Counted from the first letter of the stretch, positions 1 to 40,794 are shown. The stretch: 64,000 nt of DNA from an uncultured Thermoplasmatales archaeon (GCA_964581775.1 CAZOQA010000002.1:21125-85124); one strand, 5' to 3'. The notes: generated by a model not told the origin, from the letters alone. Made by a program: numbers and translations.

Positions 1-2137
1 CCTCGTCCTCCTCGACGGCCCGGAGGAATGCGTCCTTCTCCAGCGCGCTCACGTCACCGTCCTCGACCATCTGGCGAGCTTTCGTGACGAGTCCATAGGG
101 CAGGAACGCGAACTCCCCCTCCAGCGCGCTCGTCCGAAGCTGGCCCCGAAGCTCCTCGGCCCGGTTCTCGATCACGGGCACCTGATCCTCGCGAAGGTAG
201 CCGTCCAGCGCCAGCGACCGGGCCCGCGCCTTGCGCGTGTCGAGGAAGGCCTCGCACTCGCTGGGTTGGTCCCCCATCTCCTCGAAGCCGGTCTCGAGCG
301 TCTCGAGCTCGTCTTCGAGGTTGGAGCGTTTGCGGTATCGGCGGCCTGCCGTGATCACGCCGCCGCCGAGCGCCAGCGCGATGCCGATCACGCCGAACGT
401 CATGTCCTGGTTGTCCTCTTCGAAGCGCTCGGAGATCCAGTTGGGCTCGGTGGGCGCCTCCTGCCCGACGTGGAAGGTCTGCGTGGTCGAGGCGGTCTGG
501 TTCCCGTTCGCCACCCAGAAGCGGGCGGTGATGTCCCCGTCCTCTTCGTACGTGTGGTTGAGGGTTGGGCCCTCCTGCCAGGGGGTCGTGGTGCCATCCC
601 CCCACTCGGCCCGGAACCTCGTCGCCTCCCCCAACGCACCGGGCTCTGTGGAGGAGAGGTTCACCGTCGTCTCCTCCCCCGTCTGGGGATACGCCGTCGA
701 GACCTGCACGACAGGTTTCAGGGAGGCAGCCGTCGACCCGATCACACGCAGCGTCGCATCGGTGCCCGCAACGACCATCACCCCGTCGCCGAGGGCGAAC
801 GAGAAGCGGGTGGAATCCTCGCTCCCCTGGGGCTCGAACACCTGGCTCCACAGCGGTGCCCCGGTCTCCGCGTCGAACGCGTAGGCTTGGCTATGGTCGA
901 ACCCCTTCTCGTGCGCAAGGGTGTAGAGCGTGTCGTCTGCCACGACCAGCGACCCGGAGACAAGCTCCTGATCGGTCGCCACGGACACCCGCCAGGATTC
1001 GGCGCCCGTTTCCGCGTCGAACCGGTAGACCGACTGCGCCGATGCCGCGTAGAGGGTCCCATCTGACAGGGCCGAGGCGGGACCGATGAAGCGGTCCGGC
1101 GCCGCGTCCGCGCCGCCGATTTGTCTGGCCCAGTTCACCTGGGGCTCATCCTGGAGAGGGTTGATGTACTGGAGCGTCCCGGCGATGTTGGGATACACCA
1201 CGCGGGGGGTCGCCGTGACCCGGGGGGCAAGCTTGGGGAACGCCCCGTCGTTGCCCAGCTCCTCGTTCCCGTCGCCGGTCCCCACGTCCGTTGAGTTCTT
1301 CCAGCGAATCTCGCCCGAGTCCGTCGATACCGCCCAAAGGGTGTACGTCGTCGGCACGGTGCAGGCGCTAAAGACGACTGCGGGGACGCATGCTTGGTAG
1401 GTCTCGACCGTGATCGGGTACACGAGATCCCCGCTGAAGCTGACACCGAGCGACCACGACGTCGGCTCAGGCGATCCTTCCACACCCACGCCGAGCGCCT
1501 CCCGCTCCTCCTCGGTCGTGGTGAGCATACGGTTCCAGACCGGTTCACCCGTCTCGACCTCGACCGCCCAGATCTCCGGGTCGATCCCCTGTGACGTGTC
1601 GCCGACCCCGGCGCATGCGAGCACGACGAGATCCTCGCCCACGGCGGGTGCCTGACAGAACCGGTTGTCCCCGGAAAGCGAGGCCGCCCACGCGACCTCT
1701 CCGGTGTCAAGGTCGTAGGCCTCCAACGCGCTGCGACCTGGGACGAGGAGCTGACCGTCCACGATCGCGATGCCAGTCCAGGGGGCCCCCTCGTCCTCCA
1801 GCTCCGTGAAGAGTTCGACCTGCGCGGTCTCCAGGTCCACCTCCGCGATGCCCCGGGCCTCCCTCGACTCGTGGTCGTCGCTCGGGACGACCGGGACGTA
1901 CGCGGCGCCCTCATGGATCAAAGGTTCGGCGACGACGTCGCCCCCTCCGACCCACTGGAGGTGGTGAAGAGCGCCTGGCAGCGGGACCTCGAAGGCGGTC
2001 TCGTTCAGCCCCGGGCCCGGCTCGGGTATCGTTCCCGTTCGAGCCGCATCCGACCCGGCCTGCGTCCAACCGGCTGCACCCGCCGCGGGCACCACGAGCA
2101 TCGAACCGACGATCGCGAGCGCAAGCCAGCGGCTCAC
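1..2137 (-). CDS. Surface sensor-like protein, paralog A (PQQ-like beta-propeller + PKD + single TM + conserved cytoplasmic tail); C-terminus runs off the window
   Basis: Absent from the ORF track because it leaves the window. Manual minus-strand translation from GTG at 2137 gives 712 stop-free codons. It shows a signal-like VSRWLALAIVGSMLVVPAAGAAGW, PKD-like WGDGTTTPW..HTY, TM MTFGVIGIALALGGGVITAG and tail ECEAFLDTRKARARSL. It is collinear with the two upstream paralogs. Confidence 0.8.
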   Translation of the reverse strand, partial: MSRWLALAIVGSMLVVPAAGAAGWTQAGSDAARTGTIPEPGPGLNETAFEVPLPGALHHLQWVGGGDVVAEPLIHEGAAYVPVVPSDDHESREARGIAEVDLETAQVELFTELEDEGAPWTGIAIVDGQLLVPGRSALEAYDLDTGEVAWAASLSGDNRFCQAPAVGEDLVVLACAGVGDTSQGIDPEIWAVEVETGEPVWNRMLTTTEEEREALGVGVEGSPEPTSWSLGVSFSGDLVYPITVETYQACVPAVVFSACTVPTTYTLWAVSTDSGEIRWKNSTDVGTGDGNEELGNDGAFPKLAPRVTATPRVVYPNIAGTLQYINPLQDEPQVNWARQIGGADAAPDRFIGPASALSDGTLYAASAQSVYRFDAETGAESWRVSVATDQELVSGSLVVADDTLYTLAHEKGFDHSQAYAFDAETGAPLWSQVFEPQGSEDSTRFSFALGDGVMVVAGTDATLRVIGSTAASLKPVVQVSTAYPQTGEETTVNLSSTEPGALGEATRFRAEWGDGTTTPWQEGPTLNHTYEEDGDITARFWVANGNQTASTTQTFHVGQEAPTEPNWISERFEEDNQDMTFGVIGIALALGGGVITAGRRYRKRSNLEDELETLETGFEEMGDQPSECEAFLDTRKARARSLALDGYLREDQVPVIENRAEELRGQLRTSALEGEFAFLPYGLVTKARQMVEDGDVSALEKDAFLRAVEEDE
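306..412. repeat. 107-nt tract identical to 4774..4880 (TM/tail-coding part of paralog A)
   Basis: Character-by-character comparison: agctcgtcttcgaggttggagcgtttgcgg...cgaacgtcatgtcctggtt is identical in both copies. Flanking sequence and the middle paralog are diverged. Confidence 0.9.
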
Positions 2138-4395
2138 GCCGCTCCACCTCTGGCGTCCTCCGCGAACCAGCGGTCGAGCTGGTGGCGGACCTTCTCCTTT
2201 TGCGCCTCGCTAAGCGCCTCGTCGTCCTCGAGCAGCGTCTCGAAGGCCTCCCGCTCCCAGCCGGAGATCTTGCCATCGGCGAGCATCTTCTTGAGCGACT
2301 GCACCATCCCGTAGGGCAGGAACTGGAAGCGCTCGTCGAGCAGCGAGCTCCTCAGCTCGCGTCCCAGCTCCTCGATGCGGGATTCGATCACGCCGAACTG
2401 CTCCTCGGTGAGATCCCCGTCGAGCATGAGCGACCGGGCGCGGGCCTTGCGCGTCTCGAGGAAGGCCTCGCACTCGCCGGGGTTGTCCCTCGTATCCTCG
2501 AAGCCTGCCTCCAGCGTCTCGAGCTCCTCCTGGAGGTTCGCCTGCTTGCGCTTGCGGCGGGCCACGCCGATGGCTCCCCCGGACACGGCCACGAGGATGC
2601 CGAGCACGCCGAACGTCATGTCCTGGTTGTCCTTCTCGAAACGTTCGGCGAGCCAGGTGGGTTCCGTGGGCTCGTTTTGACCGACGTGGAAGGTCTGGGT
2701 GGTCGAGGCGGTTTGGTTGGCGTCGTTTGCGACGATGAAGCGGGCGGTCTGGTCTCCGGCGTCTGCGTAGGTGTGGTTGAGGCCTGGTTCCTCCTGCCAG
2801 TCGGTCTCGTTCCCGTCACCCCAGATCGCTTTGAAACGTGTGACGGGGCCTTGGAGGCCGGCCTCTGAGCTTGAGAGGTTCACTTGGACGGGTTCGCCTG
2901 GCTCCGGGTACGTGGTCGAGAGGTCGATGCGAGGTGAAGGGGATGCCTCCGTTTGGCCGAGGACGACGAAGGTTGTGTTCATGTTGCCGTCGTCCAGGGA
3001 CTCCACGTCCGCGTAGGCGATCAGGCCCTCGACGACGCTGAACGCATTGACGCGGTTCTCCACCTTATGCGTCCAGAGCTCTTTCCCATCGGCGGTGTCG
3101 AAGGCGTAGAGTTCTTCGACGCCCTCCGTGTTGCTCGTGGAGACGTAGATCGCCCCGGGGGTGACGACGGGGTCCAACTGGAAGCGCTGACCTTCGGAGA
3201 AGTCCAGGTTGGTGCTCCACCCGTCCTCGGGGGTCGCTTGACTGACGCGGTACACCGTTTGGGCGGACGTGCCGTAGACGCTATCATCATCGAGCGCAAC
3301 CCCCGTGGCGAAGAGGCCCTCATCTTGCGCGAAATCGGCTTCTCCGATCTCCTTTTTCCATCGCTCGTCCCCTGGCCCCAAGTTCAGCCGGTACAAGTTG
3401 CTGGCCTTGACGTAGACGCTGTCCTCCGTCACCGCCGGGTTCCCTCCTGCAGCGGGAGACTGGCTCAACCCGGAGCTTGCCGGTCCAGGGGGTGTCGGTT
3501 GGGTCATGTTCCGCGGCGGGCTGGCCCAGCGCCAGTCCACCGACCCGGTCGAAGACGGCGGGCTCTTCTCGAGGGCCCATACCCAGTACCTCGCCTGCCC
3601 CATCCCGACATCGGGCGTGTTCAAACGGGCGAAGCTGGTCTCTAGGGCTTGGACAACCACTCGGGTCTGGGAGACGGCTAGCCCCACCGGGAAGAACCCG
3701 GTGTCCTTGTATTCGGGCTGTTGGGCAGGTGGGACGGTCCCGGGGTCCCAGACCCACGCCGGTTCGCCCGTCTCGGCATCGAGCTGAGCGATCATGATGT
3801 GGGGGTACAGGTAACCCCCCTGGGTCGCGGACTGGGTCAGGGTGTCGGCCTCGTCCCGCGCCAGGCAGAGGACGGTGAGGTGGCCGCCCTCCAGGCTCAT
3901 GCGCCAGCAGCTTTCCATCTCCACCCCCTGGGATGTGCTATCGGAACTGGGAGCGGTGCCTGGCCACGTCCACTCTGAGCCGCCCGGGCCGACCGGGACA
4001 GCGTGCACGCTCCCCTGGTCCGAGACGAAGAGTGTCTCACCGTCCGTGGCCATGCTCAGCCGCGCAGCGATGTCCAGGTCTTGAGCCACCGTGGTGAGCC
4101 GGCCATCGTCCAGTCGAAGGGAGTATACTTGGTAGGTGCCATCACGGTCGTCGCCGGCCTCCCGAGCCAGGAACAGGACCTGCTCCTCGAGGATTAGCGG
4201 GGGGGCTGCGGCTTCGGCTTTCATGCTCCCGTTCAGCTGCACGCGCAGCGCCACATCTGGCCACTCGGGGCCCTCCTCGGGCTGGAACCCTGTCGCGGCG
4301 GCGTCTCCGCGCGGCTGCATCCAGGAGTCCGCGGCGACCGTCGCGCTCACGGCAAGGCAAGCCAGCAGGGCCAACACGAGGAGGGAACGTCTCAT
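2134..4395 (-). CDS. Surface sensor-like protein, paralog B (PQQ-like beta-propeller + PKD + TM + conserved cytoplasmic tail)
   Basis: ORF 2134..4422. The likely start is the ATG at 4395 (MRRSLLVLALLACLAVSATVAA signal), which overlaps the upstream stop as ATGA. PKD motif WGDGNETDW..HTY, TM MTFGVLGILVAVSGGAIGVA, tail ECEAFLETRKARARSL..FQFLPYGMVQSLK. Confidence 0.85.
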   Translation of the reverse strand: MRRSLLVLALLACLAVSATVAADSWMQPRGDAAATGFQPEEGPEWPDVALRVQLNGSMKAEAAAPPLILEEQVLFLAREAGDDRDGTYQVYSLRLDDGRLTTVAQDLDIAARLSMATDGETLFVSDQGSVHAVPVGPGGSEWTWPGTAPSSDSTSQGVEMESCWRMSLEGGHLTVLCLARDEADTLTQSATQGGYLYPHIMIAQLDAETGEPAWVWDPGTVPPAQQPEYKDTGFFPVGLAVSQTRVVVQALETSFARLNTPDVGMGQARYWVWALEKSPPSSTGSVDWRWASPPRNMTQPTPPGPASSGLSQSPAAGGNPAVTEDSVYVKASNLYRLNLGPGDERWKKEIGEADFAQDEGLFATGVALDDDSVYGTSAQTVYRVSQATPEDGWSTNLDFSEGQRFQLDPVVTPGAIYVSTSNTEGVEELYAFDTADGKELWTHKVENRVNAFSVVEGLIAYADVESLDDGNMNTTFVVLGQTEASPSPRIDLSTTYPEPGEPVQVNLSSSEAGLQGPVTRFKAIWGDGNETDWQEEPGLNHTYADAGDQTARFIVANDANQTASTTQTFHVGQNEPTEPTWLAERFEKDNQDMTFGVLGILVAVSGGAIGVARRKRKQANLQEELETLEAGFEDTRDNPGECEAFLETRKARARSLMLDGDLTEEQFGVIESRIEELGRELRSSLLDERFQFLPYGMVQSLKKMLADGKISGWEREAFETLLEDDEALSEAQKEKVRHQLDRWFAEDARGGAA

Positions 4396-6932
4396 GGGCT
4401 TGCCTCCTCGTCCGTGGACCATCGCTCCAGCAGCCCCCGGACGCGCTCCTTTTGGGCCTCGTTGAGGGTCTCATCTCGGTCGAGCAGATCCTCGAGGGTG
4501 TCCCGTTCCCACCCGTTGATGCGGCCATCGCTGAGCATGCGCTTGAGGGACTGGACCATCCCGTGGGGCAGGAACTGGAACCGTTCGTCGAGCATCCCGG
4601 AGCGCAGCTTCCCTCGCAACTCTTCGGCCCGGTTCTCGATGATGCCCACCTGGTCTTCCTTCAGGCGCCCGTCGATGGCCAGGGAGCGCGCCCGGGCTTT
4701 CCGGTTGTCGAGGAACGCTTCGCATTCCGTCGGGTGGTCTTTGGTCTCTTTGAACCCTTCTTCGAGCCCCTTTAGCTCGTCTTCGAGGTTGGAGCGTTTG
4801 CGGTATCGGCGGCCTGCCGTGATCACGCCGCCGCCGAGCGCCAGCGCGATGCCGATCACGCCGAACGTCATGTCCTGGTTATCCTGTTCGAAGCGCTCCG
4901 AGAGCCACGTGGGCTCCGCAGGTTTCTCTTCCCCCACGTGGAAGGTGAGGACCTTGCTCGCGGTCTGGTTGGCCTCGTTGCCCACCTGGACCGTCGCCTC
5001 GACATCTCCCTCTTCCTCGTAGACGTGCGAGAGCGCGGGGTCCTGCTGCCAGTCCGTCACGGTCCCGTCGCCCCAATCGACCCTGTACTCCGTGACAGGA
5101 CCCTGGGCTCCGGCCTGGGACCCAGACAGGTCCACCGTCACCGGCTCCCCCGCTTTCGGATACTCTGTGGACGCCTCCACGGTCGGCGTGGGAGAGGCGG
5201 CCGTCTCCCCGATTACGTGCAGGACCCCGTCCCAGCCCCCCCACGCGAAGAAGCCATCCCCGAACGCAGGCCCTCCAGAGCGACCGCCGCTGACCCCGGC
5301 CTCGGGGATGTTCCGCCACGTCCACTCCAGGTCCCCCGTCTGAAGGTCCCGCGCGTCGATCCCGTACCCGGCTGCAGGATGCTCGCCGGAGAAGAGCATC
5401 GTTTGAACGTAGGTCCTCTCTTCGTCCGTCACCACGGTCCCCACACCATGCCCTTCGGCGCCGGGCTCGGAATCCCTCCGGACGCGCTCCCAGTACACCT
5501 CTCCCGTCGCCGCGTCGAACCGATACACGGTCTGGGTCGAGGTCCCGATCACCGTGCCCTCCCGAAGCCCCATCCCGAGCGCGCCCCGAGCTTCGAACTC
5601 GTCCGATTCCCCTGAGGGGGTCCTCCAGTTCTCCTCCCCCGTGGCGGGGTTCATCGCCATCGGATCGTCCAGGCGGATGTACACCCGCGCTGGGTCGGAC
5701 ACGGCTGCCCCGCAGCACCAGACCTGCGTCCACTCAGCCCCGGGGAGGTACCCGACCTGATCCAGGGAGACGCGGTTGTTCGTCGTGTCCGTCTCGTGCC
5801 ACTGCGTGGTCAGCGATGCCTTGTCCAGCCCCCATAGCTCGTAGCGAACGCTGCTAGCATAGCCACCCACATCGATTGGGTTGTTTGAACTGCTGGCATA
5901 GGTTTGGAGGTACACGAAGACGCGGTCTTGGCCAACCGTCAACGTGGGGTTCCCCCCGGGGAGCCTTTCCTCTTGCCCCTGAACCGGGACCGAGGGGACG
6001 TCCACGACCGGTTGCTCGTCAGCCTGTTCGGGAGGCGCCATCTGCCGAACCCATTGCTGGGTTACGTCTCCGCTTTGAAGGTCCACAGCGACGGCCCCGA
6101 AGAACCAGCGCGTGGGAAGCCACTGGTCCTCGTTCTCCGGGTTCGAGGCAGCCTCGTACGCGATGATGGGAACGTAGGCCAGACCATCCTCGAAGACCGG
6201 CTGACCGTACTGCCTCCTGAGATCGCTCTCCTCGAGGAGCCCTTCGAACGCGGCCGCCCGCCAGGCTTCAGAGCCTTCCGGGACCTCCAGGGCCACGATC
6301 TCCCTGTCGGTAGCTTGGAGGAGAAGCTGCTGATCCGGGGTGAGGAAGCCGTGACCCGAGAGAGGGAGATCCATCACGCGCTCCTTCTCCCCGGTCGAAA
6401 CGTTCAGGCGCCAAAGAGCATCCTCAGAGAGGTCCTCCCGCCAATGCTCGTTGGCCTCCGTAACCACGTACGCGGTGTCATCTTCCAAGACGGGCGTGCC
6501 GCGGACGGTGCCGGGGAATTGAACCTCGAGCGCGGTGTCGTTCGTCGCGGGTCCTTGGAAGGGGATCTCCCCGGTGCGGGCTGGATCGTAGCCCGCCTGG
6601 GTCCACGACGCCGCGATGCTCCCCGCGGCGACCAGGAGGAGCAGCGCGATCACGGCAAGGCCCGTGACCAAAGCGATCCCCCAGCGCCGAGAGCTACCCA
6701 GGCCGTGGGGGGCTCCGACGCTGTTGCTCGTACCTTCCGCCGTGCGTCTCCCTAGCAAACCTCCGGGCCTCGACGGTCGATGGGACCTCGCGAAACTTAA
6801 GCGTAGGGGTCCCGTCGGCTGCCTGGGCCGGTTCTGAGCAGATGCAGCGGACTTCTTCCACGATCTCCGGACGGCCTCCAGGGGGGTCATGTTGCTCATC
6901 CCGTCGAGTCCCAGGTTTGCGAGGGAACTCAA
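4392..6932 (-). CDS. Surface sensor-like protein, paralog C (PQQ-like beta-propeller + PKD + TM + conserved cytoplasmic tail); start uncertain
   Basis: ORF 4392..6932 has a TTG start. The first ~58 codons use rare codons (AGA, CTA, TTA, AGT, AGG) and contain a TATA-like CTTAAG. The real start may be the in-frame TTG at 6758, just before TM WGIALVTGLAVIALLLLVAAG. PKD WGDGTVTDW..HVY; tail ECEAFLDNRKARARSL. Confidence 0.8.
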   Translation of the reverse strand: MSSLANLGLDGMSNMTPLEAVRRSWKKSAASAQNRPRQPTGPLRLSFARSHRPSRPGGLLGRRTAEGTSNSVGAPHGLGSSRRWGIALVTGLAVIALLLLVAAGSIAASWTQAGYDPARTGEIPFQGPATNDTALEVQFPGTVRGTPVLEDDTAYVVTEANEHWREDLSEDALWRLNVSTGEKERVMDLPLSGHGFLTPDQQLLLQATDREIVALEVPEGSEAWRAAAFEGLLEESDLRRQYGQPVFEDGLAYVPIIAYEAASNPENEDQWLPTRWFFGAVAVDLQSGDVTQQWVRQMAPPEQADEQPVVDVPSVPVQGQEERLPGGNPTLTVGQDRVFVYLQTYASSSNNPIDVGGYASSVRYELWGLDKASLTTQWHETDTTNNRVSLDQVGYLPGAEWTQVWCCGAAVSDPARVYIRLDDPMAMNPATGEENWRTPSGESDEFEARGALGMGLREGTVIGTSTQTVYRFDAATGEVYWERVRRDSEPGAEGHGVGTVVTDEERTYVQTMLFSGEHPAAGYGIDARDLQTGDLEWTWRNIPEAGVSGGRSGGPAFGDGFFAWGGWDGVLHVIGETAASPTPTVEASTEYPKAGEPVTVDLSGSQAGAQGPVTEYRVDWGDGTVTDWQQDPALSHVYEEEGDVEATVQVGNEANQTASKVLTFHVGEEKPAEPTWLSERFEQDNQDMTFGVIGIALALGGGVITAGRRYRKRSNLEDELKGLEEGFKETKDHPTECEAFLDNRKARARSLAIDGRLKEDQVGIIENRAEELRGKLRSGMLDERFQFLPHGMVQSLKRMLSDGRINGWERDTLEDLLDRDETLNEAQKERVRGLLERWSTDEEASP
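4774..4880. repeat. 107-nt tract identical to 306..412 (TM/tail-coding part of paralog C)
   Basis: See the partner copy at 306..412. The match is 100% over 107 nt by direct reading. Confidence 0.9.
6796..6801 (-). promoter_or_regulatory. TATA-like box (CTTAAG) inside the annotated 5' end of paralog C
   Basis: Same hexamer class as boxes found 28-33 nt upstream of other start codons here. It lies about 40 nt upstream of the in-frame TTG at 6758, which follows GGAGG. Confidence 0.3.
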
Positions 6933-7120
6933 GGCTCGCTCTGCAGTGTTCTGTCAAACCCGGGATCTCACGAGAAGGAGGGAAGCGGCGGTGACCGGCT
7001 AGGGTCTTGGGTGCCGGCCGCCGCCGCTCGCGTCTCTCGTTGCCCTCCAGAGCTGGCATCCGAGTGTCGGCCTTGAAGGGTCGGTCTGGCACTCTCGAGC
7101 AAACCCGAGGCCGGCGGTCC

Positions 7121-8866
7121 CTAGGCTTCCAGCTCGTCGGCGAGGGTGGAAAGCCGATCCCGTGTGCGCTCATCCGGCTCGTGGTCCTCGAGGCCACGCG
7201 TGGCTTGCTCGTGCGCTTGCTCGGGGCGTCCTAGTTCCTTGAGCGAAAGGGCCTTCTTCCAGGCGAGGTCCGCGAGGCGGTGCCCTGCGTCTGCGGCCTG
7301 GAAGCGCTTGGCGGCTTCCCGGTACCGTTCCAGGGCCTGCTCGTGTTCACCGCGGTGGTACCGGATGTCCCCTTTCTCGTCGAGGACGAGCCCGGCTTGG
7401 TGGTCGTTTCGGATGTCCTGGGGGTCGAAGCGTTCGAGCACGTCGAGGTACAGGTTGTGGTACCCGTCCTCGATGAGGTCGAACTCCTCCAGGTCCAGGT
7501 CGCGTTCGAGCATGGCGAGCACGCGCGAGCGGTTCCCGGCTTCGAGGAGGTGGTAGAGGGCATCCAACCGGGCCTCGAGCGTGCCCTTGGTGAGGGCGTG
7601 CTCTGCGGCCTCCTCGTGCAGGCTGGCGGGGTCCTCGAGGCGCTCGTGGAAGAACGAGCCGAGCAGGCGGTGCATGCGCAGGGTTTCCCCGTCGTCGCGG
7701 AGCAGGCGTCGGCGGCGCAGCTTGACGAGGGCTCCGCCGGGGTCGCGAGGCGTGATGGCCTCGAGGTCCTCGCGCGTGAAGGGCCCGGGGAAGATGCTGG
7801 CGTGGGCGAGCACGCCCTCTTCGGCGTCGCTGAGGTGCCGGCTGACCTCGTCGAGCAGGTAGTCTTCGGTGTCCTGGTCCGGCATGCGGTCGAGCACGGT
7901 CTCTAGCGGGTCGTCGGCCTCCGTGGCGGTCTCTGCCAGAAGGTGGACCGCTAGGGGGTGACCGCCCAGGCGTCGCTGGAGGCGGTGCGCGGTCTCGGTT
8001 GTGGTGTCCAGGCCTCGTTCCCCCAGGAGGGCGTGGACCTCTTCGGGGGCAAGCCCGGTCAAGCGGACCCGGCGCGCGTGTCGGGCGGTGGGGTCGTGCG
8101 AGGGGGCTTGGCGGCCCGTGATGACGAGCTTGCCGTCGTGGACGCGGCGGATCGCGTCCGCGAGCGCGGCCTCGAGGTCCTCGTCTCGGATCTGCTCGAC
8201 GGCGTCCAGCACGGTGACGTGGGCGCCGTCGTCGAGGGCTTCGAGCAGGAGCTCGCGTTGGTCCTCGAGGGGAGCGTTGGCTTCGATGGCGTCCATCAGC
8301 CGGGTGCGGCCGTGGCGGGCGTGGAAGACGCCCAGGCGGTGGGTCAGCCAGGTGAGCGTCTCGGTCCCGCTGAAGGTGTGGAAGAACACGGGCGTCTCGT
8401 CTTGCTTGGCCCGGGCGTAAGCGGACGCGAGGCTGGTTTTCCCGATGCCTGCGATGCCTTCCACGATGACGACGGGGTCGGGCCCGTCCAGGATCTCCAG
8501 CTCGCGGTGGCGCCCGACGAAGCCCGCGGGGTCGGGGATGCGCACGCGCAAGCGGTCGATGACCGTTCGCCGTTCGGCATCGTCCCCGTCTTCTCCCACG
8601 TCGATGGCCAACCCGCGGGCGCCGATCCGCACGCGAAGATCATCCGCGACCAGGCGGTACGTTTTCACGTTCTTCCCGTCCGTGTGCTCCCACGCGGATT
8701 CGACGAGGCCGGCCTCCTGCATGCGGGCCAACCGTCGGGACACGTCCGATTCGCTTCGGGTCAAAAGCCCGCTCAACCGGCGCGGGTGGGAGGGCTCGAT
8801 GGCCAACAGGCTCAAGATGGATTGGTTGACGGGGTTGGCCAAGGCCCGGAGCACGTCCTCCTCCAT
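7121..8866 (-). CDS. wHTH - STAND/NB-ARC-like P-loop NTPase - TPR-like helical repeat protein (putative signal-transducing regulator)
   Basis: N-terminal ArsR-like wHTH (NPVNQSILSLLAIEPSHPRRLSGLL..RRLARMQEAGLVE). Arch_ATPase-like FVGRHRELEIL, Walker A GIAGIGKTSLA and Walker B-like HVTVLDAVE. The C-terminus is helical and TPR-like (YHRGEHEQALERYREAAKRF). Confidence 0.8.
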   Translation of the reverse strand: MEEDVLRALANPVNQSILSLLAIEPSHPRRLSGLLTRSESDVSRRLARMQEAGLVESAWEHTDGKNVKTYRLVADDLRVRIGARGLAIDVGEDGDDAERRTVIDRLRVRIPDPAGFVGRHRELEILDGPDPVVIVEGIAGIGKTSLASAYARAKQDETPVFFHTFSGTETLTWLTHRLGVFHARHGRTRLMDAIEANAPLEDQRELLLEALDDGAHVTVLDAVEQIRDEDLEAALADAIRRVHDGKLVITGRQAPSHDPTARHARRVRLTGLAPEEVHALLGERGLDTTTETAHRLQRRLGGHPLAVHLLAETATEADDPLETVLDRMPDQDTEDYLLDEVSRHLSDAEEGVLAHASIFPGPFTREDLEAITPRDPGGALVKLRRRRLLRDDGETLRMHRLLGSFFHERLEDPASLHEEAAEHALTKGTLEARLDALYHLLEAGNRSRVLAMLERDLDLEEFDLIEDGYHNLYLDVLERFDPQDIRNDHQAGLVLDEKGDIRYHRGEHEQALERYREAAKRFQAADAGHRLADLAWKKALSLKELGRPEQAHEQATRGLEDHEPDERTRDRLSTLADELEA

Positions 8867-8925: not shown

Positions 8926-9993
8926 CTATGCGAAGGGGATCAGGGCCTCGACGTAGAGCACGACGGCGACGAACGCAGCGTACGAGGCCAGGAGCGTCCA
9001 GCCTTCCCGGTGCGTGAGCTCGAAACCGGACCGCATGAACGCTATGAACAGGAGGGTGGAGGCGCCCAGCATCAGCATCAGGGGGCCAAGCCGGGCCAGG
9101 TCCACGACCGCGCTGCCGGCGACCATCACGCCGATGGGCAAGATCACGAGCACGTCGAACGTGTTCGAGCCCAGCACGTTGGCCAGGCTTGCAAGGCTGC
9201 GGTCGTTCCGGGCTGCGCTCATGCTGGCGAACGTGTCCGGCAGGCTCGTGGCGCTCGCGATCACGATCACGCCCCACACGAACGGGGACACCCCCACCTG
9301 GTTGCCCAGGTAGAGGACGCTGCGGATCAGCCCCTCCGCGGAGACGAGGACCAGCAGCAGCCCGGCCACGAGCCCGCCCCACGCCCTCCACGCTTCCACC
9401 GTTTGCCGGGGCTGGGGCGTGTGATCGCGCGTATCCTGCCATTGCAGCACGAGGTACATCGCGTACAAGACGAGGGGGAGGATGGCCAGCTCGCGCGTGA
9501 ACAAGCCTCGCAGGCCCCCGGCCCCCCCGAGGGGGTTGTACACGATGCTCAGCGCGAACACGAGCGAGAGCGCAAGGACCGCGGCCAGGTAGAACAGGCC
9601 CTCCTTGAAGACGAGGTTGCGGCTGGTTTGCATCGTGTCCGACCCGAGCACGGCGATGCCGGGGATGATGAGCACGTTCATCACGGCCGAGCCCACGATG
9701 ATGCCGATGCCCAGCTCGAACGCGTCGTGCAGGAGGGTGGCCAACAGCGTGCTGGCCAGCTCCGGGAAGCTGGACCCGATCGCGATCACGATCGAGCCTT
9801 GGACGACCGGCGGAAGCCCGTAGAGGTTCCCGATCTGCTTGCTGGCCTTCTCGAGCCTGGAGCTGCCGACCCACAAGAGGGCCGCGGACCCGATGAGGAC
9901 CGTGAGCGCGACGGCGAGGGCAAGCACTCGGCGGCGGTAGCTGGGCTTCCTGATATGCGCTGGGTTTGAGGGAAACCCGCAAACCCGACCCAT
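8926..9993 (-). CDS. Ca2+/cation antiporter (CaCA, YrbG-like Na+/Ca2+ exchanger family)
   Basis: Polytopic membrane protein with both alpha-repeat signatures (GSSFPELAST and ATSLPDTFAS). ORF 8926..10050 would overlap the tRNA, so the start is placed at the internal ATG 9993 (MGRVCGF..). Confidence 0.8.
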   Translation of the reverse strand: MGRVCGFPSNPAHIRKPSYRRRVLALAVALTVLIGSAALLWVGSSRLEKASKQIGNLYGLPPVVQGSIVIAIGSSFPELASTLLATLLHDAFELGIGIIVGSAVMNVLIIPGIAVLGSDTMQTSRNLVFKEGLFYLAAVLALSLVFALSIVYNPLGGAGGLRGLFTRELAILPLVLYAMYLVLQWQDTRDHTPQPRQTVEAWRAWGGLVAGLLLVLVSAEGLIRSVLYLGNQVGVSPFVWGVIVIASATSLPDTFASMSAARNDRSLASLANVLGSNTFDVLVILPIGVMVAGSAVVDLARLGPLMLMLGASTLLFIAFMRSGFELTHREGWTLLASYAAFVAVVLYVEALIPFA

Positions 9994-10011
9994 CGTAGAT
10001 CGAGGGGAAGA

Positions 10012-10095
10012 TGCAGGGGGCAGGATTCGAACCTGCGAAGGCCTTGCCACCGGGTCTTAAGCCCGGCCCCTTTGTCCTGGCTAGGGGACCCCTGC
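10012..10095 (-). tRNA. tRNA-Leu(UAA): tRNA-Leu (anticodon UAA), class II with long variable arm; no encoded CCA
   Basis: Hand-folded. Acceptor GCAGGGG/CCCCTGC, anticodon stem CCGGG/CCCGG with loop CUUAAGA, variable arm GGC-AAG-GCC, T arm GCAGG-TTCGAAT-CCTGC, discriminator A; 84 nt. Confidence 0.9.
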
Positions 10096-10220
10096 AGCGG
10101 TTGGAGGCAACCGTCCCGCGTAGAAGAATCCTCTGCCGACAACCGGTCCTCGTCTTGGCCCGGTGTCGGCCGGGATTCCCCCCGTTTCAGGCCCCGAGGC
10201 GAAGAGAAAGAGGGGAACGC

Positions 10221-37489: not shown

Positions 37490-39211
37490 ATGACCCACCC
37501 CGACTCCCACGCCAGGCCGCTCAACACCATGCACCGAGCCCTCCTCCGCCTCCGAAGATCAGACGACGACCCCCCACCCAGCTTCCCCCCCGGAACCCTC
37601 CCCGCCAGCCTCCGCCTCACCGTCACCCTGGCCAGCCTCTCCACCGGCCTCCTCGTCTTCCCCCCTCTGCTCCGATCCCCCCTCGCCATCGGGACCGCCG
37701 CCCTCGCCCTGGCTTACTCCACCGCCACCCTCCTCATCCCCCACGCCAAGGAAGCCACCCTCGAGCACCCCCCCGCGACCACGACCCTCGACGCCCTCCT
37801 CATCGCAGCATGGATCCACGCCACCGGCGGCGCAGCCTCCCCCTACTACGTGCTCTGGCTCATCGCCATCGCGTTCGTCGCCATCCGCTTTACCCCCAAA
37901 CACACCACGCTCGCCTGCCTGGGCTACCTCGCCCTCCACAGCCTCCTCGCGACGCTCTCCGGGCACCTTCTCACCCCCACCTTCCTCACCCAAGCCGCGC
38001 TCCTCGCCGCCACCGCCTTCTCCTTCACGCAACTCAACCCAGCCTGGGAAACCCCCACCCCCCACGACCCCGACGCCACCCCCCTCGGCCCCGACGAATG
38101 GCGCGCCCTCCTCGACGACGCCCCCGAAGTCCTCATGATGCTCGACGCCGACGGCGCCATCCGCTACACCAACCTCGCCGCCACCGACGACGCCCTCGAC
38201 GCCCTCCAAGGCCAACCCGCCACCGACTGGCTCCCCGAACGCTCCCACGACCGCTTCCACCAAGCCCTCCACGAAGTCACCCAGCAACGCGAACCCGCCA
38301 CCCTCGAGATCGAAAGCCGCCGCCCCGACGGGACCCCCAGCTGGTACCTGCTCCGCCTGGCCCCCGTCGAAGACGACGCCCGCACCCTCGGCGCCTCCCT
38401 CGTCTGCATCGACATCACGCACCTCCGCCAAGCCGAACAAGACCTCGAAGCCAACCACCGCGAACTCGAACGCTCCCACGACCTCCTCAGCACGTACATG
38501 CGCCTGACCGCACACGACCTCCAAGAGCCCCTCGCCGACGTCACCCGCTACGCCCAGATGCTCGAAGACCAAAACCCCGACCACCTCCCCGACGAACACG
38601 CCGAAGCAAGCCGCTTCGCCATCCAAGGAGCCAAACGCATCATGCAACTCATCGACGCGCTTGGCCGGCTTACCAAGCTCACCACCCGCTCCCTACGGCC
38701 CGAACCCACGCCCGGGCACCGCCTCGCCCAACAAGCCCTCCACGAGGTCCAACACCTCCACGAAGACGCCCCCGAACGCGTCCAGATCGACGACCAGATC
38801 CCCCCCCTCCACGCGGACGCCGAATCCATCCGCGAGACCCTGCGCGAGATCCTCGACAACGCCATCCGCTACGCAGACGACGCCACCGTCCACGTCCACG
38901 GAGAACACGACGGCCACACCGCCCTGCTCTACGTCGACGACGACGGCCCCGGCATCCAGGAAGCCTACCGCGAACGCGTGCAAGAACCCTTCCGCCGCCT
39001 CCACGGATGGCACCAAGAACCCGGCACCGGCATCGGGCTCGCCTACGCCAAAGAAGCCATCCGACGCAACCACGGGACCCTCACCATCCAAGAAAGCCCC
39101 CAAGGCGGAACACGCATCCGCCTGGAACTCCCCGCGCCCGCACGCACCCCAGAAAGCACCCCCGCCGGCACGCTCACACGGTACGACAGCGACGAACCCG
39201 CCCTCGCCTAG
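37490..39211 (+). CDS. Membrane sensor histidine kinase (multi-TM N-terminus, PAS, HisKA, HATPase_c)
   Basis: H-box LTAHDLQEPLA, N-box LDNAIRY, G1 DDDGPGI and G2 GTGIGLA. The membrane module carries the ATGGAASPYYVLW motif. Confidence 0.9.
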   Translation: MTHPDSHARPLNTMHRALLRLRRSDDDPPPSFPPGTLPASLRLTVTLASLSTGLLVFPPLLRSPLAIGTAALALAYSTATLLIPHAKEATLEHPPATTTLDALLIAAWIHATGGAASPYYVLWLIAIAFVAIRFTPKHTTLACLGYLALHSLLATLSGHLLTPTFLTQAALLAATAFSFTQLNPAWETPTPHDPDATPLGPDEWRALLDDAPEVLMMLDADGAIRYTNLAATDDALDALQGQPATDWLPERSHDRFHQALHEVTQQREPATLEIESRRPDGTPSWYLLRLAPVEDDARTLGASLVCIDITHLRQAEQDLEANHRELERSHDLLSTYMRLTAHDLQEPLADVTRYAQMLEDQNPDHLPDEHAEASRFAIQGAKRIMQLIDALGRLTKLTTRSLRPEPTPGHRLAQQALHEVQHLHEDAPERVQIDDQIPPLHADAESIRETLREILDNAIRYADDATVHVHGEHDGHTALLYVDDDGPGIQEAYRERVQEPFRRLHGWHQEPGTGIGLAYAKEAIRRNHGTLTIQESPQGGTRIRLELPAPARTPESTPAGTLTRYDSDEPALA

Positions 39212-39687: not shown

Positions 39688-40794
39688 TCACGCCTCGTAC
39701 CACGTCTCAAGCCCATCCGCCCGCCCGCTCTTGCGACCCGAGGCCTCCCGGAACGAGGACGCCAACGCGCCCCCCGCCAACCCCAAGCCCTCCAGCTCCA
39801 ACTGCTCGCGCCACACCTCCCGACACTCGCACCCCACCCGATCGAACACTCCCGCATCCCCCGTCTTCTTGTGAGCATCGATCGCGCGCAACACCCCCTC
39901 ATCGCACACGCCGCAATTGTGCGCCCCCCGTGGCTGGCCCCCCGCGACCACGTCGCTGTGCGTTTGCACCTGCGCGAACCCCGAGACCCGGTCCAACACC
40001 TCCACCACGCTCCACAACCACGGCGGCGAATACTCGCCTGCGTCGAACAGCTCCTCCACGAGCGTGTTCTTGTGCACGCTCACCGGGTTGAAGCTCATCG
40101 CCTCCAACGCCGGCGACCCCGACACGCGGCGAGCCGTCGCCACCGCCTCCTCGATCGCCTCACGCTCCGTCAAGAACGGCGGCTTCACCAGCACGTAGCA
40201 CTTCAGAAGCGTATCGAACCCACGGGCCACCTCGGACGCCTGGTGGAAATCCTCGATCGTGAACTCGTTGTTCACGCTGAACTCCAACACCTCCGGCGTC
40301 GACGCCTCCATCCCGATGCCCAACGCGAACTGACACCCCTCCGGCAACCGGTCCCGGAGATCGCTCAACCGTTCCTCGGTCACATGATGCGCCTGGGCCT
40401 CCGACTGGAAGCGAACGACCTGCTCGGGGACCAGGTCCAGGATGCGTTGCTGCGCCTCGACGGGCACCTCGGTGCCGTCCAGGAAGCTGCCGCTCGTGTA
40501 GAGCTTGATCACGGTGTGATCCGCGAACTGGGCGAGCGCCGTCTCGAACTGGCGCACGAGGTGGTCCGCGGTGATGTTCTTGACGAACGAGTCGTTGACG
40601 TACCCGCACATCGAGCACCCGCCCCGGATGGCCCACGTGCACCCGCGGGTGCGTAGGATCACCGTGAGGGCGCGGTGAGCTTCTCCGTCGATGACCTCTT
40701 CCTCGCTCCAGACGCGGCTGGGCGCGTTGGGGTCGTCGTCGCGCTGGTCGAGCTTGCGGGCGTCGCGTACGGCTTGGTTGAGGGCGTCAAACAC
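39688..40794 (-). CDS. raSEA: Archaeosine biosynthesis radical SAM protein RaSEA (TIGR01210-like)
   Basis: LRTRGCTWAIRGGCSMCGYV cluster motif. It is operonic with arcS through an 8-nt overlap. Confidence 0.8.
   Translation of the reverse strand: MFDALNQAVRDARKLDQRDDDPNAPSRVWSEEEVIDGEAHRALTVILRTRGCTWAIRGGCSMCGYVNDSFVKNITADHLVRQFETALAQFADHTVIKLYTSGSFLDGTEVPVEAQQRILDLVPEQVVRFQSEAQAHHVTEERLSDLRDRLPEGCQFALGIGMEASTPEVLEFSVNNEFTIEDFHQASEVARGFDTLLKCYVLVKPPFLTEREAIEEAVATARRVSGSPALEAMSFNPVSVHKNTLVEELFDAGEYSPPWLWSVVEVLDRVSGFAQVQTHSDVVAGGQPRGAHNCGVCDEGVLRAIDAHKKTGDAGVFDRVGCECREVWREQLELEGLGLAGGALASSFREASGRKSGRADGLETWYEA

What the first reader, a model, noticed from the sequence alone, without database searches (positions are those of the whole stretch)
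1..8866. Three translationally coupled surface-protein paralogs directly downstream of a wHTH-STAND-TPR gene: candidate surface-to-transcription signalling array
Three consecutive minus-strand genes share one architecture: signal/anchor, PQQ-like beta-propeller, PKD domain, single TM and a ~140-aa cytoplasmic tail. Their junctions are overlapping stop/start tetranucleotides: ATGA at 4392-4395 and GTGA at 2134-2137. The extracellular propeller parts are strongly diverged between paralogs. The PKD, TM and tail are well conserved. This is the pattern expected for diversified sensors feeding a common intracellular partner. The only gene upstream on the same strand encodes a wHTH + P-loop STAND + TPR-like protein. 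That protein has a DNA-binding output and a repeat domain suited to binding a peptide tail. Archaea lack ECF sigma/anti-sigma systems, so such a module could be an undescribed route for envelope signalling. The functional link is my inference.
Basis: partly seen in the sequence, partly recalled or inferred. Interest (0 to 1): 0.7.

Follow-up and report, generated by a model that had tools for sequence, protein, structure and literature searches.

The report
Archaeal surface-protein paralog array beside STAND regulator
Three back-to-back genes of an uncultured archaeon encode membrane-anchored surface proteins with fast-diverging outer domains and a conserved, previously undescribed inner tail, but elsewhere the tail family sat next to this kind of regulator gene only in close relatives, so a direct surface-to-gene signalling link is unproven.

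Summary
Three minus-strand genes (A 1-2137, B 2134-4395, C 4392-6758) encode signal peptide, PQQ_2-type beta-propeller, PKD, one TM and a ~140-aa cytoplasmic tail. They are joined by ATGA and GTGA overlaps. Propellers are 27-29 % identical; PKD-TM and tail are 58-65 %.

The tail matches no Pfam, NCBIfam or PDB family. It defines 299 protein clusters, almost all with this same architecture. AlphaFold gives a confident six-helix domain with no structural match.

The upstream gene (7121-8866) belongs to the described PH0952 clade of archaeal wHTH-NOD-TPR STAND transcription factors (Foldseek E 2.8e-18 to 6MFV).

Linkage is clade-limited. All four loci with STAND proteins at least 57 % identical (window included) carry tail genes downstream, despite rearrangements. 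None of five loci with STAND homologs at 46 % or less does. Five informative tail-family loci elsewhere have housekeeping neighbours and no STAND.

So the tail's general partner is not this STAND. The regulator is at best a local transcriptional controller of the array, across a 362-nt gap. Part of the C-terminal conservation comes from gene conversion (a 107-nt identical tract between A and C).

Tail-TPR signalling was not tested and is unlikely.

The parts
1..2137 (-). Paralog A. GTG start at 2135-2137; the last ~25 codons run off the window. Signal peptide, PQQ_2 propeller, PKD, TM, tail (tail = 2-343).
   Evidence: Translation. Pfam PQQ_2 1.4e-15, PKD_4 2.6e-5. Hydropathy. tblastn of tail and PKD.
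2134..4395 (-). Paralog B, 753 aa. ATG at 4393-4395 overlaps the stop of C (ATGA); its own TGA stop overlaps the GTG start of A (GTGA). Tail is about 2137-2559.
4392..6758 (-). Paralog C, 788 aa from TTG 6758. The ORF is open to 6932 and an alternative start is GTG 6653. Tail 4395-4811; PKD+TM 4812-5210.
   Evidence: The gene call on Logan contig L001 places the start 363 nt after the STAND stop. Database entry P0030 starts at 6653.
306..412 (-). 107-nt tract in A that is base-for-base identical to 4774-4880 in C (juxtamembrane, TM and start of tail). A gene-conversion tract.
   Evidence: Longest common substring. Third-position identity is 1.00 here against 0.35-0.6 in neighbouring stretches.
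4774..4880 (-). Partner copy in C of the 107-nt gene-conversion tract.
6759..7120 (-). 362-nt intergenic region between the STAND stop and the start of C. It contains the only AT-rich octamer (TTAAGTTT, 6793-6800, 43 nt before the TTG) and GGAGG next to the start. It is poorly conserved with the orthologous spacers (370 nt in L002, 880 nt in L017). Probably holds the array's own promoter (inference).
7121..8866 (-). PH0952-clade STAND transcription factor, 581 aa. ArsR-like wHTH (about 1-75), beta linker, NOD with Walker A GIAGIGKTS (about 115-330), WHD/arm, and TPR sensor (about 410-581).
   Evidence: Pfam and NCBIfam. AF2 pLDDT 85. Foldseek 6MFV E 2.8e-18, TMq 0.58 over 481 columns. Description of PH0952.

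Best explanation
The three genes are tandem duplicates of a lineage-specific family of type I membrane surface proteins of high-GC Thermoplasmatota-like archaea.

Each protein is exported by an N-terminal signal peptide. It displays a cofactor-less BamB/PQQ_2-type beta-propeller on a PKD stalk, which carries a conserved N-Q-T sequon. It crosses the membrane once and ends in a conserved six-helix cytoplasmic domain, about 140 aa long, that no library describes.

The ectodomains diverge fast. Positional orthologs are only 31-33 % identical, while the neighbouring STAND protein is 57-62 % identical. They presumably bind different external ligands or surfaces.

The PKD-TM-tail module stays uniform for two reasons: purifying selection, and repeated gene conversion between paralogs. 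The tail most likely docks every family member to one shared cytoplasmic partner, or to itself (inferred). It is modular, because an unrelated giant surface protein carries three copies in tandem.

The genes are co-transcribed and translationally coupled through 4-nt overlaps (inferred from sequence; the same overlap is present in L002 and L011).

The upstream gene is a PH0952-type STAND transcription factor, an ADP/ATP switch with a TPR sensor and an N-terminal wHTH. In this clade only, it is a conserved neighbour. It most likely acts as the local transcriptional regulator of the array, working on the 362-nt spacer in response to an unknown cytoplasmic inducer (inferred). It is not the general partner of the tail.
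For: - Architecture and topology.
- Family size and uniform architecture: 299 clusters at E<=1e-3 and 183 at E<=1e-10. Nearly all are 700-800 aa with the tail at the very C-terminus.
- Tail as an independent domain: invariant R70, L81-P82, L93, D95, E102 and W131 across 21 diverse members. AF2 pLDDT 87, pTM 0.72, six helices. Three tandem copies behind the TM of the 2844-aa protein P0172.
- No known relative: Pfam and NCBIfam give only sub-threshold TerB or SHOCT-like hits. The PDB sequence profile finds nothing. Foldseek against PDB and BFVD gives no hit below E 0.3.
- Tandem arrays recur in L002, L005, L007 and L011 (two genes each) and in L006 with an intervening gene. 4-nt overlaps occur in L002 and L011.
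- Fast ectodomain, slow tail.
- Gene conversion: a 107-nt identical tract, patchy third-position identity, and a mosaic in which the tail of A is 76 % identical to the tail of L002_g1 while their propellers are 28 % identical.
- Purifying selection: stretches with 85 % amino-acid identity but only 35 % third-position identity.
- STAND identity.
- Clade-limited linkage: 4 of 4 loci at >=57 % identity, with varying order and upstream flanks, against 0 of 5 at <=46 %. No STAND in L005-L014.
Against: - No expression, binding or localisation data exist; the organism is uncultured.
- The regulator-target relation rests only on conserved adjacency in four fairly close loci. The spacer is long (362-880 nt) and poorly conserved, with no clear shared operator. 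Adjacency could therefore be inherited by descent.
- The survey of tail-family loci is small: 10 genome loci, of which 5 are informative upstream. It was found through one PKD peptide pattern, so it is not an unbiased census.
- The cytoplasmic location of the tail is inferred from the positive-inside rule only.
- The function of the ectodomain is unknown.
Confidence: 0.5

Rival explanations
1. The conserved tails, or their conserved C-terminal W-F-A-R-D-A-G peptide, bind the TPR sensor of the STAND factor. Ligand binding outside then releases or activates the factor. This would be a trans-envelope route analogous to idle MalK tethering the STAND regulator MalT at the membrane.
For: - STAND and tail genes are linked in 4 of 4 close-clade loci despite rearrangements.
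- The tail has a family-wide conserved extreme C-terminal motif and a conserved helical domain suitable for protein binding.
- There is precedent: MalK anchors MalT at the membrane and blocks its activation, with the NBD and sensor domains involved (PMC10427625; PMC6468293).
Against: - The tail is conserved in 299 clusters, but STAND adjacency is absent from all five informative loci outside the close clade.
- STAND homologs at 39-46 % identity sit beside unrelated genes: OsmC, amino-acid catabolism genes and a Kelch/fn3 protein.
- No interaction could be computed.
- TPR sensors of characterised relatives such as MalT bind small inducers.
Confidence: 0.1
2. There is no functional link. The STAND gene and the array are neighbours by descent in one genus- or family-level clade. 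The STAND factor regulates other loci, or only itself.
For: - A 362-880-nt poorly conserved spacer, with no shared operator beyond one 9-mer.
- Linkage is lost at <=46 % identity.
- Both families otherwise lie in unrelated housekeeping contexts.
Against: Adjacency survives changes of the upstream flank (Na/Ca exchanger in the window, DUF2299 and a small ORF in L002). It also survives changes in which paralog comes first (C-type in the window, L002 and L017; B-type in L024), changes of copy number (1-3), and insertion of a 146-aa gene. This pattern is more typical of selected linkage.
Confidence: 0.27
3. The array is a variable surface coat. The paralogs are alternative or combinable envelope proteins whose exposed propellers diversify under pressure from viruses or predators. 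Gene conversion shuffles modules, and the tail anchors them to a sub-membrane lattice or cytoskeleton. The role would be structural rather than signalling.
For: - Ectodomain orthologs are only 31-33 % identical while the tail is 57-64 % and STAND 57-62 %.
- Recent gene conversion and mosaic genes.
- Multiple dispersed loci per genome: three loci in MAG DATDQL01.
- A conserved N-glycosylation sequon.
- Beta-propeller + PKD is a known composition of archaeal surface-layer proteins (Jing et al. 2002, cited in PMC2447325).
Against: - The conversion tracts seen are in the conserved 3' module, not in the variable propeller. They homogenise rather than diversify.
- No evidence of phase-variation elements.
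- No dN/dS test was done.
- The tail has no detectable similarity to cytoskeletal or ESCRT binders.
Confidence: 0.13

Closest known systems
PH0952 of Pyrococcus horikoshii and its clade of archaeal STAND transcription factors (PDB 6MFV; PMC6468293)
   Same: Same domain order as the window's 7121-8866 gene: N-terminal ArsR-like wHTH effector, NOD (NBD-HD-WHD), TPR-like arm, TPR sensor. Best structural match: E 2.8e-18, TMq 0.58, 481 columns, 23 % identity. The inducer and targets of PH0952 are also unknown.
   Different: The window protein is shorter (581 aa, whereas the crystallised PH0952 fragment that lacks the DNA-binding domain is already 641 residues). It comes from a different phylum-level lineage. 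The paper does not report a neighbourhood with surface-protein genes.
MalT / MalK control of the E. coli maltose regulon
   Same: A STAND ATPase with a TPR-type sensor acts as a transcription factor. A membrane-associated protein (MalK) tethers and inhibits it (PMC10427625).
   Different: - MalT has a C-terminal LuxR-type HTH, not an N-terminal wHTH.
- The NCBIfam MalT model scores 42.9 bits against a cut-off of 537.
- MalK is an ABC ATPase, not a single-pass receptor tail.
- No interaction is shown here.
Archaeal surface-layer and cell-surface proteins built of beta-propeller and PKD domains (Methanosarcina; Jing et al., Structure 2002, pmid 12377130, cited in PMC2447325)
   Same: A secreted beta-propeller followed by PKD domain(s) on the archaeal cell surface. 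Multi-copy gene families.
   Different: The propeller here is of the PQQ_2/BamB type. Whether it is related to the YVTN type was not tested. The protein has a C-terminal TM plus a conserved 140-aa cytoplasmic domain, which that literature does not describe.
BamB / PQQ_2 beta-propellers
   Same: Pfam PQQ_2 scores above the gathering threshold in all three paralogs (43-58 bits against 27.6).
   Different: - The BamB equivalog models score 16-47 bits against cut-offs of 285-423.
- The PQQ-dehydrogenase models score 30-35 bits against 480.
- Archaea have no outer membrane.
- The shared feature is therefore a fold, not a function.
TerB / SHOCT-like helical modules
   Same: The second half of the tail (L-x-x-M-L-x-D-G-R-[IV]-x-x-x-E-R-x-x-F) gives weak hits: TerB in 5 of 21 members (best E 0.003), and SHOCT or DUF1707 in one member each.
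   Different: All hits are below the curated cut-offs (17 bits against 24.4). The PDB offers no structural support. The first three helices match nothing.

Membership tests
PH0952-clade STAND transcription factors | N-terminal ArsR-like winged-helix DNA-binding domain | tested here: met
   NCBIfam HTH_metalloreg E 2.5e-6 for residues 4-73. Pfam HTH_5, PadR and MarR_2 give weak hits. The AF2 model shows helices 2-51 followed by a beta-hairpin at 55-72. All sequence hits are below the curated cut-offs, so the assignment is at fold and superfamily level.
PH0952-clade STAND transcription factors | NOD (P-loop NBD + HD + WHD) followed by an arm and a TPR sensor | tested here: met
   Walker A GIAGIGKTS. 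AAA_16, NB-ARC and TPR_12 hits. Foldseek 6MFV E 2.8e-18, TMq 0.58 over 481 columns; the next hits are CED-4, Avs3, Apaf-like and NLR proteins.
PH0952-clade STAND transcription factors | ADP/ATP-driven oligomerisation and DNA binding | not testable with these tools
   Needs biochemistry.
MalT family (NF003420) | Score above the equivalog cut-off and a C-terminal LuxR-type HTH | tested here: not met
   42.9 bits against a cut-off of 537. The HTH is N-terminal and ArsR-like, and the C-terminus is TPR.
Antiviral STAND (Avs) and other defence NLR-like systems | Match to defence STAND models, with a nuclease, protease or other killing effector | tested here: not met
   PADLOC gives only a Csa3 wHTH hit (E 8e-7, residues 3-79) and no Avs model. 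The effector is a DNA-binding domain.
PQQ-dependent dehydrogenases | Score above the TIGR03075 cut-off (full eight-bladed quinoprotein with cofactor site) | tested here: not met
   30-35 bits against a cut-off of 480.
BamB (outer-membrane assembly factor) | Score above the TIGR03300 / NF008351 cut-offs | tested here: not met
   16-47 bits against 285-423. Only the generic PQQ_2 repeat model passes.
PKD domain (PF18911 / PF00801) | Score above the Pfam gathering threshold | tested here: met
   PKD_4 scores 28.3 (B) and 31.4 (C) against 27. PKD scores 29.7 (C) against 23.5. A scores 24.6, just below. The WGDG motif is conserved family-wide.
TerB / SHOCT (candidate identity of the tail) | Score above the Pfam gathering threshold | tested here: not met
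   TerB scores 17.4 bits against 24.4 and is hit by 5 of 21 members at E<0.1. SHOCT and DUF1707 are each hit by one member.
Anti-sigma-factor-like trans-envelope signalling (ECF/ZAS) | A zf-HC2 or other anti-sigma domain in the cytoplasmic part, with a partner sigma factor | tested here: not met
   zf-HC2 appears only as a sub-threshold hit in 2 of 21 tails (best E 0.0024). Archaea use TBP and TFB rather than sigma factors (established knowledge).
The new 'tail' family itself (PQQ-PKD-TM-tail proteins) | C-terminal six-helix domain of about 135 aa after a single TM, with invariant R70, L81-P82, L93, D95, E102 and W131 | tested here: met
   A, B and C score 130-185 bits against the 21-member profile. 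The residues are present in the alignments.

The most novel reading that the evidence does not exclude
In this clade, the conserved six-helix tail, or its C-terminal W-F-A-R-D-A-G peptide, docks onto the TPR sensor of the PH0952-type STAND factor. Ligand binding by any of the diversified propellers would then release or activate a transcription factor at the membrane. This would be the first receptor-to-STAND trans-envelope signalling route in archaea. It would also be the first identified input for the PH0952 clade.
Probability: 0.1. Interest if true: 0.75.

Novelty: new variant of a known kind. Interest (0 to 1): 0.35.

Why it matters
Three points make this worth recording.

1. The 140-aa cytoplasmic domain is absent from Pfam, NCBIfam and the PDB. 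Yet it is conserved in about 300 protein clusters and folds confidently. It is a clean target for defining a new domain family, and for asking what the inside of an archaeal surface receptor connects to.

2. The inducer and regulon of the PH0952 clade of archaeal STAND transcription factors are unknown. A clade in which such a factor is stably linked to one operon gives a concrete candidate target to test.

3. The array is a compact example of modular evolution. Ectodomains diverge fast, while gene conversion keeps the anchoring module uniform.

None of this yet shows a new signalling principle.

Tried and rejected
- Word-index protein searches (search for homologous proteins). The tail alone returned nothing. 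A 14-member PKD-TM-tail profile returned only two fragments. The exhaustive HMMER search nevertheless found 299 clusters. The earlier 'no homologs' result was therefore a tool artefact and not rarity.
- Exact-sequence look-ups of B and of database entry P0030 found nothing. The parent contig beyond the left edge, downstream of A, could not be retrieved.
I had to seed with the PKD peptide FRA[DE]WGDG, which biases the locus sample. The metagenome scan gave only two short contigs.
- Identity of the tail. TerB, SHOCT and zf-HC2 were considered and rejected as sub-threshold. An internal duplication of the two three-helix halves was rejected (hhalign probability 4.7 %). YlaN, CdvB and TetR-like structural hits were rejected (E > 1). 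No viral structural relatives were found.
- Defence-system reading of the STAND gene: rejected.
- A haloarchaeal origin, suggested by the 67 % GC content, was rejected. Relatives are Thermoplasmatota or 'Methanobacteriota' MAGs.
- Search for a shared operator in the three STAND-to-array spacers. Only the 9-mer CGGGTTTGA is shared, at different positions. That is too weak to call.
- Search for another conserved neighbour of tail genes. All-against-all comparison of neighbours found only the STAND gene (close clade) and a small ORF of about 80 aa in three loci.
- Co-folding the tail with the TPR region was not attempted. The structure tool reports no PAE or interface score, so the result could not have been judged.

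Full report
**1. What is in the sequence**

The window is about 67 % G+C. Its left end carries four long minus-strand genes.
- A: 1-2137, starting at GTG 2137, with its 3' end off the window.
- B: 2134-4395.
- C: 4392-6758.
- A 581-aa gene at 7121-8866.

On the minus strand, 4392-4395 reads ATGA (stop of C, start of B). Likewise 2134-2137 reads GTGA (stop of B, start of A). Each junction has a GGAGG-like motif a few bases upstream.

The start of C is uncertain. The ORF is open to 6932. A gene call on an identical 4.1-kb Logan contig uses TTG 6758. A database entry (P0030) starts at GTG 6653. Only 6758 keeps the positively charged 'RRW' stretch ahead of the hydrophobic core, so I use it. That leaves a 362-nt gap after the STAND stop codon.

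Beyond the STAND gene, on the same strand, lie a Na/Ca-exchanger gene and tRNA-Leu(TAA) at 10010-10096. The STAND gene is therefore the nearest upstream same-strand gene but not the only one.

**2. The three paralogs**

- Domains: Pfam finds PQQ_2 (E 4e-11 to 1e-15, above the cut-off) and PKD_4 or PKD in all three.
- Not enzymes or BamB: the NCBIfam BamB and PQQ-dehydrogenase models score far below their cut-offs. The propeller is thus a generic BamB-like fold and not a quinoprotein.
- Topology: hydropathy shows one N-terminal signal-like segment and one C-proximal TM followed by RR(K/Y)RK. This places the last 139-140 aa in the cytoplasm by the positive-inside rule.
- Identity: propellers 27-29 %, PKD+TM 60-65 %, tails 58-65 %.

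**3. Why the C-terminal part is conserved**

Two processes are visible.
- Selection. Some stretches, such as ECEAFLD.RKARARSL, are 85 % identical in protein but only 35 % identical at third codon positions.
- Gene conversion. Other stretches are identical at every base. A 306-412 and C 4774-4880 share a 107-nt perfect tract. Further patches show elevated third-position identity between A/B and B/C.

Mosaicism extends across genomes. The tail of A is 76 % identical to the tail of the first gene in locus L002, while their propellers are 28 % identical.

**4. The tail is a real, undescribed domain**

- Libraries: the tail matches nothing above threshold in Pfam or NCBIfam. The only recurrent weak hit is TerB, in 5 of 21 members (best E 0.003).
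- Family size: an exhaustive HMMER search of 1.84 billion representatives with the three window tails found 299 clusters at E<=1e-3 and 183 at E<=1e-10. Nearly all are 700-800 aa with the tail at the extreme C-terminus.
- Shared architecture: the sequences I read share signal peptide, propeller, PKD (WGDG, N-Q-T), TM and tail.
- Conservation: across 21 diverse tails, R70, L81-P82, L93, D95, E102 and W131 are invariant. A W-[FY]-A-R-D-A-G motif closes the protein.
- Structure: AlphaFold2 on this alignment gives pLDDT 87 and pTM 0.72, with six helices.
- No structural relative: Foldseek finds nothing below E 2 in the PDB or below E 0.3 in BFVD. A PDB sequence-profile search is empty.
- Modularity: one 2844-aa low-GC protein with a quite different repeat ectodomain carries three tandem tail domains behind its TM (P0172).

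**5. The upstream gene**

Sequence searches show an ArsR-like HTH, AAA_16/NB-ARC and TPR_12. The MalT model gives E 1.7e-11 but scores far below its cut-off.

An AlphaFold2 model from 27 homologs (pLDDT 85) matches 6MFV best, with E 2.8e-18 and TMq 0.58 over 481 columns. 6MFV is the P. horikoshii STAND protein PH0952. The next matches are CED-4, Avs3, Apaf-like and NLR proteins.

[quoted passage not shown] Its clade lies between MalT and APAF1 and is conserved in several archaeal phyla (PMC6468293). The wHTH-STAND-TPR architecture is therefore known, although its inducer and targets are not. PADLOC finds no defence-type STAND model.

**6. Is the STAND gene linked to the tail family?**

I compared neighbourhoods from both sides.

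Starting from STAND homologs:
- 68 % identity (L024): a 146-aa secreted protein, then a B-type tail gene downstream.
- 62 % (L002): two tail genes with a 4-nt overlap, after a 370-nt gap.
- 57 % (L017): a C-type tail gene after 880 nt.
- 46-39 % (L003, L004, L018, L019, L021): no tail gene. Neighbours include OsmC, phosphoglycerate dehydrogenase, amino-acid catabolism genes and a 1277-aa Kelch/fn3 surface protein without the tail.

Starting from the tail family, a scan of one genome per GTDB species gave ten loci. Eight carry tail genes, and four of those carry two. None has a match to a profile of the STAND family.

Five of these loci have enough upstream sequence to be informative (L006, L007, L008, L009, L011). 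Their neighbours are a thiolase, a Na/H exchanger, RNase J, polyprenyl synthetase, a class I tRNA synthetase, a deaminase and an AbiEii-like protein. One MAG holds three separate tail loci.

An all-against-all comparison of neighbours found no other conserved partner, apart from a small ORF of about 80 aa in three loci.

**7. Reading the linkage**

That criterion is met. The tail's general partner, if there is one, cannot be this STAND protein.

Within the close clade, however, the pair stays together while several things change:
- the upstream flank differs;
- the first paralog differs (C-type or B-type);
- copy number varies from 1 to 3;
- an extra gene is inserted in one locus.

This is more than I would expect from inertia alone. 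The commonest reason for such a pattern is a local regulator beside its target operon.

The spacer is long and poorly conserved. It holds one AT-rich octamer 43 nt before the start of C (6793-6800), where a TATA-like element could sit. The three spacers share only the 9-mer CGGGTTTGA, at different positions. I regard regulator-target as plausible but unproven.

**8. The proposed tail-TPR contact**

A STAND transcription factor held at the membrane by a membrane-associated protein has precedent. Idle MalK anchors MalT and blocks its activation (PMC10427625). The idea is therefore not far-fetched. The conserved C-terminal peptide of the tail is also the kind of ligand that repeat domains bind.

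Nothing here tests it. The structure tool gives no interface score, so co-folding would have been uninterpretable. The distribution data argue against a general relationship. I put this reading at about 10 %.

**9. What the proteins probably do**

A beta-propeller followed by PKD is a known composition of archaeal cell-surface and S-layer proteins (Jing et al. 2002, cited in PMC2447325).

The new elements are the single-pass anchor with a conserved cytoplasmic domain, and the marked rate difference between modules. Positional orthologs of C are 31-33 % identical in the propeller, 57-64 % in the tail, and 57-62 % in the adjacent STAND protein.

I favour diversified ligand- or surface-binding ectodomains on a common anchoring and adaptor module. 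Whether the tail signals, oligomerises or tethers remains open.

**10. Context and limits**

The rest of the window is ordinary chromosome: CCA-adding enzyme, topoisomerase I, PolX, a FadB-like enzyme, a PAS histidine kinase, a subtilase and an SNF2 helicase.

The main limits are these:
- The locus sample is small and was seeded with a single pattern.
- Many contigs are short.
- There are no expression data.
- The sequence downstream of A is missing.

**Verdict**

In novelty terms this is a new variant of a known kind, built around a new cytoplasmic domain family. Interest is moderate.

Noticed in passing
window 306-412 and 4774-4880: A 107-nt tract is identical base for base between paralogs A and C, which are otherwise about 65 % identical in DNA. 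It indicates a recent gene-conversion event covering the juxtamembrane region, the TM and the start of the tail.
   Followed up: yes
window 10010-10096 (-): tRNA-Leu (anticodon TAA) overlaps the 5' end of the longest ORF of the Na/Ca-exchanger gene (8926-10050). The real start of that gene must lie further downstream; the Logan contig calls a 355-aa product.
   Followed up: partly
P0172 (database protein, 2844 aa; no locus): A low-GC giant surface protein with dozens of Ig-like repeats, one TM and three tandem copies of the tail domain. It ends in a CxxC...CxxC zinc-ribbon-like motif. It shows that the tail is a portable cytoplasmic module used outside the PQQ-PKD family.
   Followed up: partly
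L002 1489-1746; L017 104-343; L008 about 2720-2973: A conserved ORF of about 80 aa (36-39 % identity, no Pfam hit) lies directly upstream of the STAND gene in two close-clade loci. In a locus without STAND it lies directly upstream of the tail gene. The window has no clear copy; the best tblastn hit is E 0.003 at 40444-40527.
   Followed up: partly
L024 2335-2775; L002 9172-10040: A 146-aa secreted or lipoprotein-like gene lies between the STAND gene and the tail gene in L024. Two homologs lie just after the array in L002. It may belong to the cluster. In the window, the equivalent position downstream of A is off the left edge.
   Followed up: partly
window 6954-6962 (-); also L002 and L017 spacers: The 9-mer CGGGTTTGA occurs in all three STAND-to-array spacers (0.07 expected in shuffles) and three times in the window (0.52 expected). 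In L017 it is part of an imperfect palindrome, GGGTTTGAG-N9-CTCAAGCCC, just upstream of an AT-rich AATTTATG. It could be an operator half-site or chance.
   Followed up: partly
L019 11835-15668: A STAND homolog at 39 % identity is followed on the same strand by a 1277-aa Kelch/fn3 surface protein that lacks the tail domain. This may hint that PH0952-clade genes sit next to surface-protein genes more often than chance, or it may be coincidence.
   Followed up: no
tails of A, B and C and family alignments A2 and A5: Two family-wide features. An extreme C-terminal motif W-[FY]-A-R-D-A-G lies within about 10 residues of the stop codon. An N-glycosylation sequon N-Q-T is conserved in the PKD domain (A N546, B N560, C N597).
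   Followed up: partly
window 37490-39211 (+): A PAS-domain histidine kinase (PAS_4 and HATPase_c). The organism therefore has conventional sensor kinases as well.
   Followed up: no
L003 12543-13007; L018 6925-7365: Two loci with STAND homologs at 45-46 % identity both have an OsmC-family gene within 1 kb downstream. This may be the conserved neighbour of that sub-clade.
   Followed up: no
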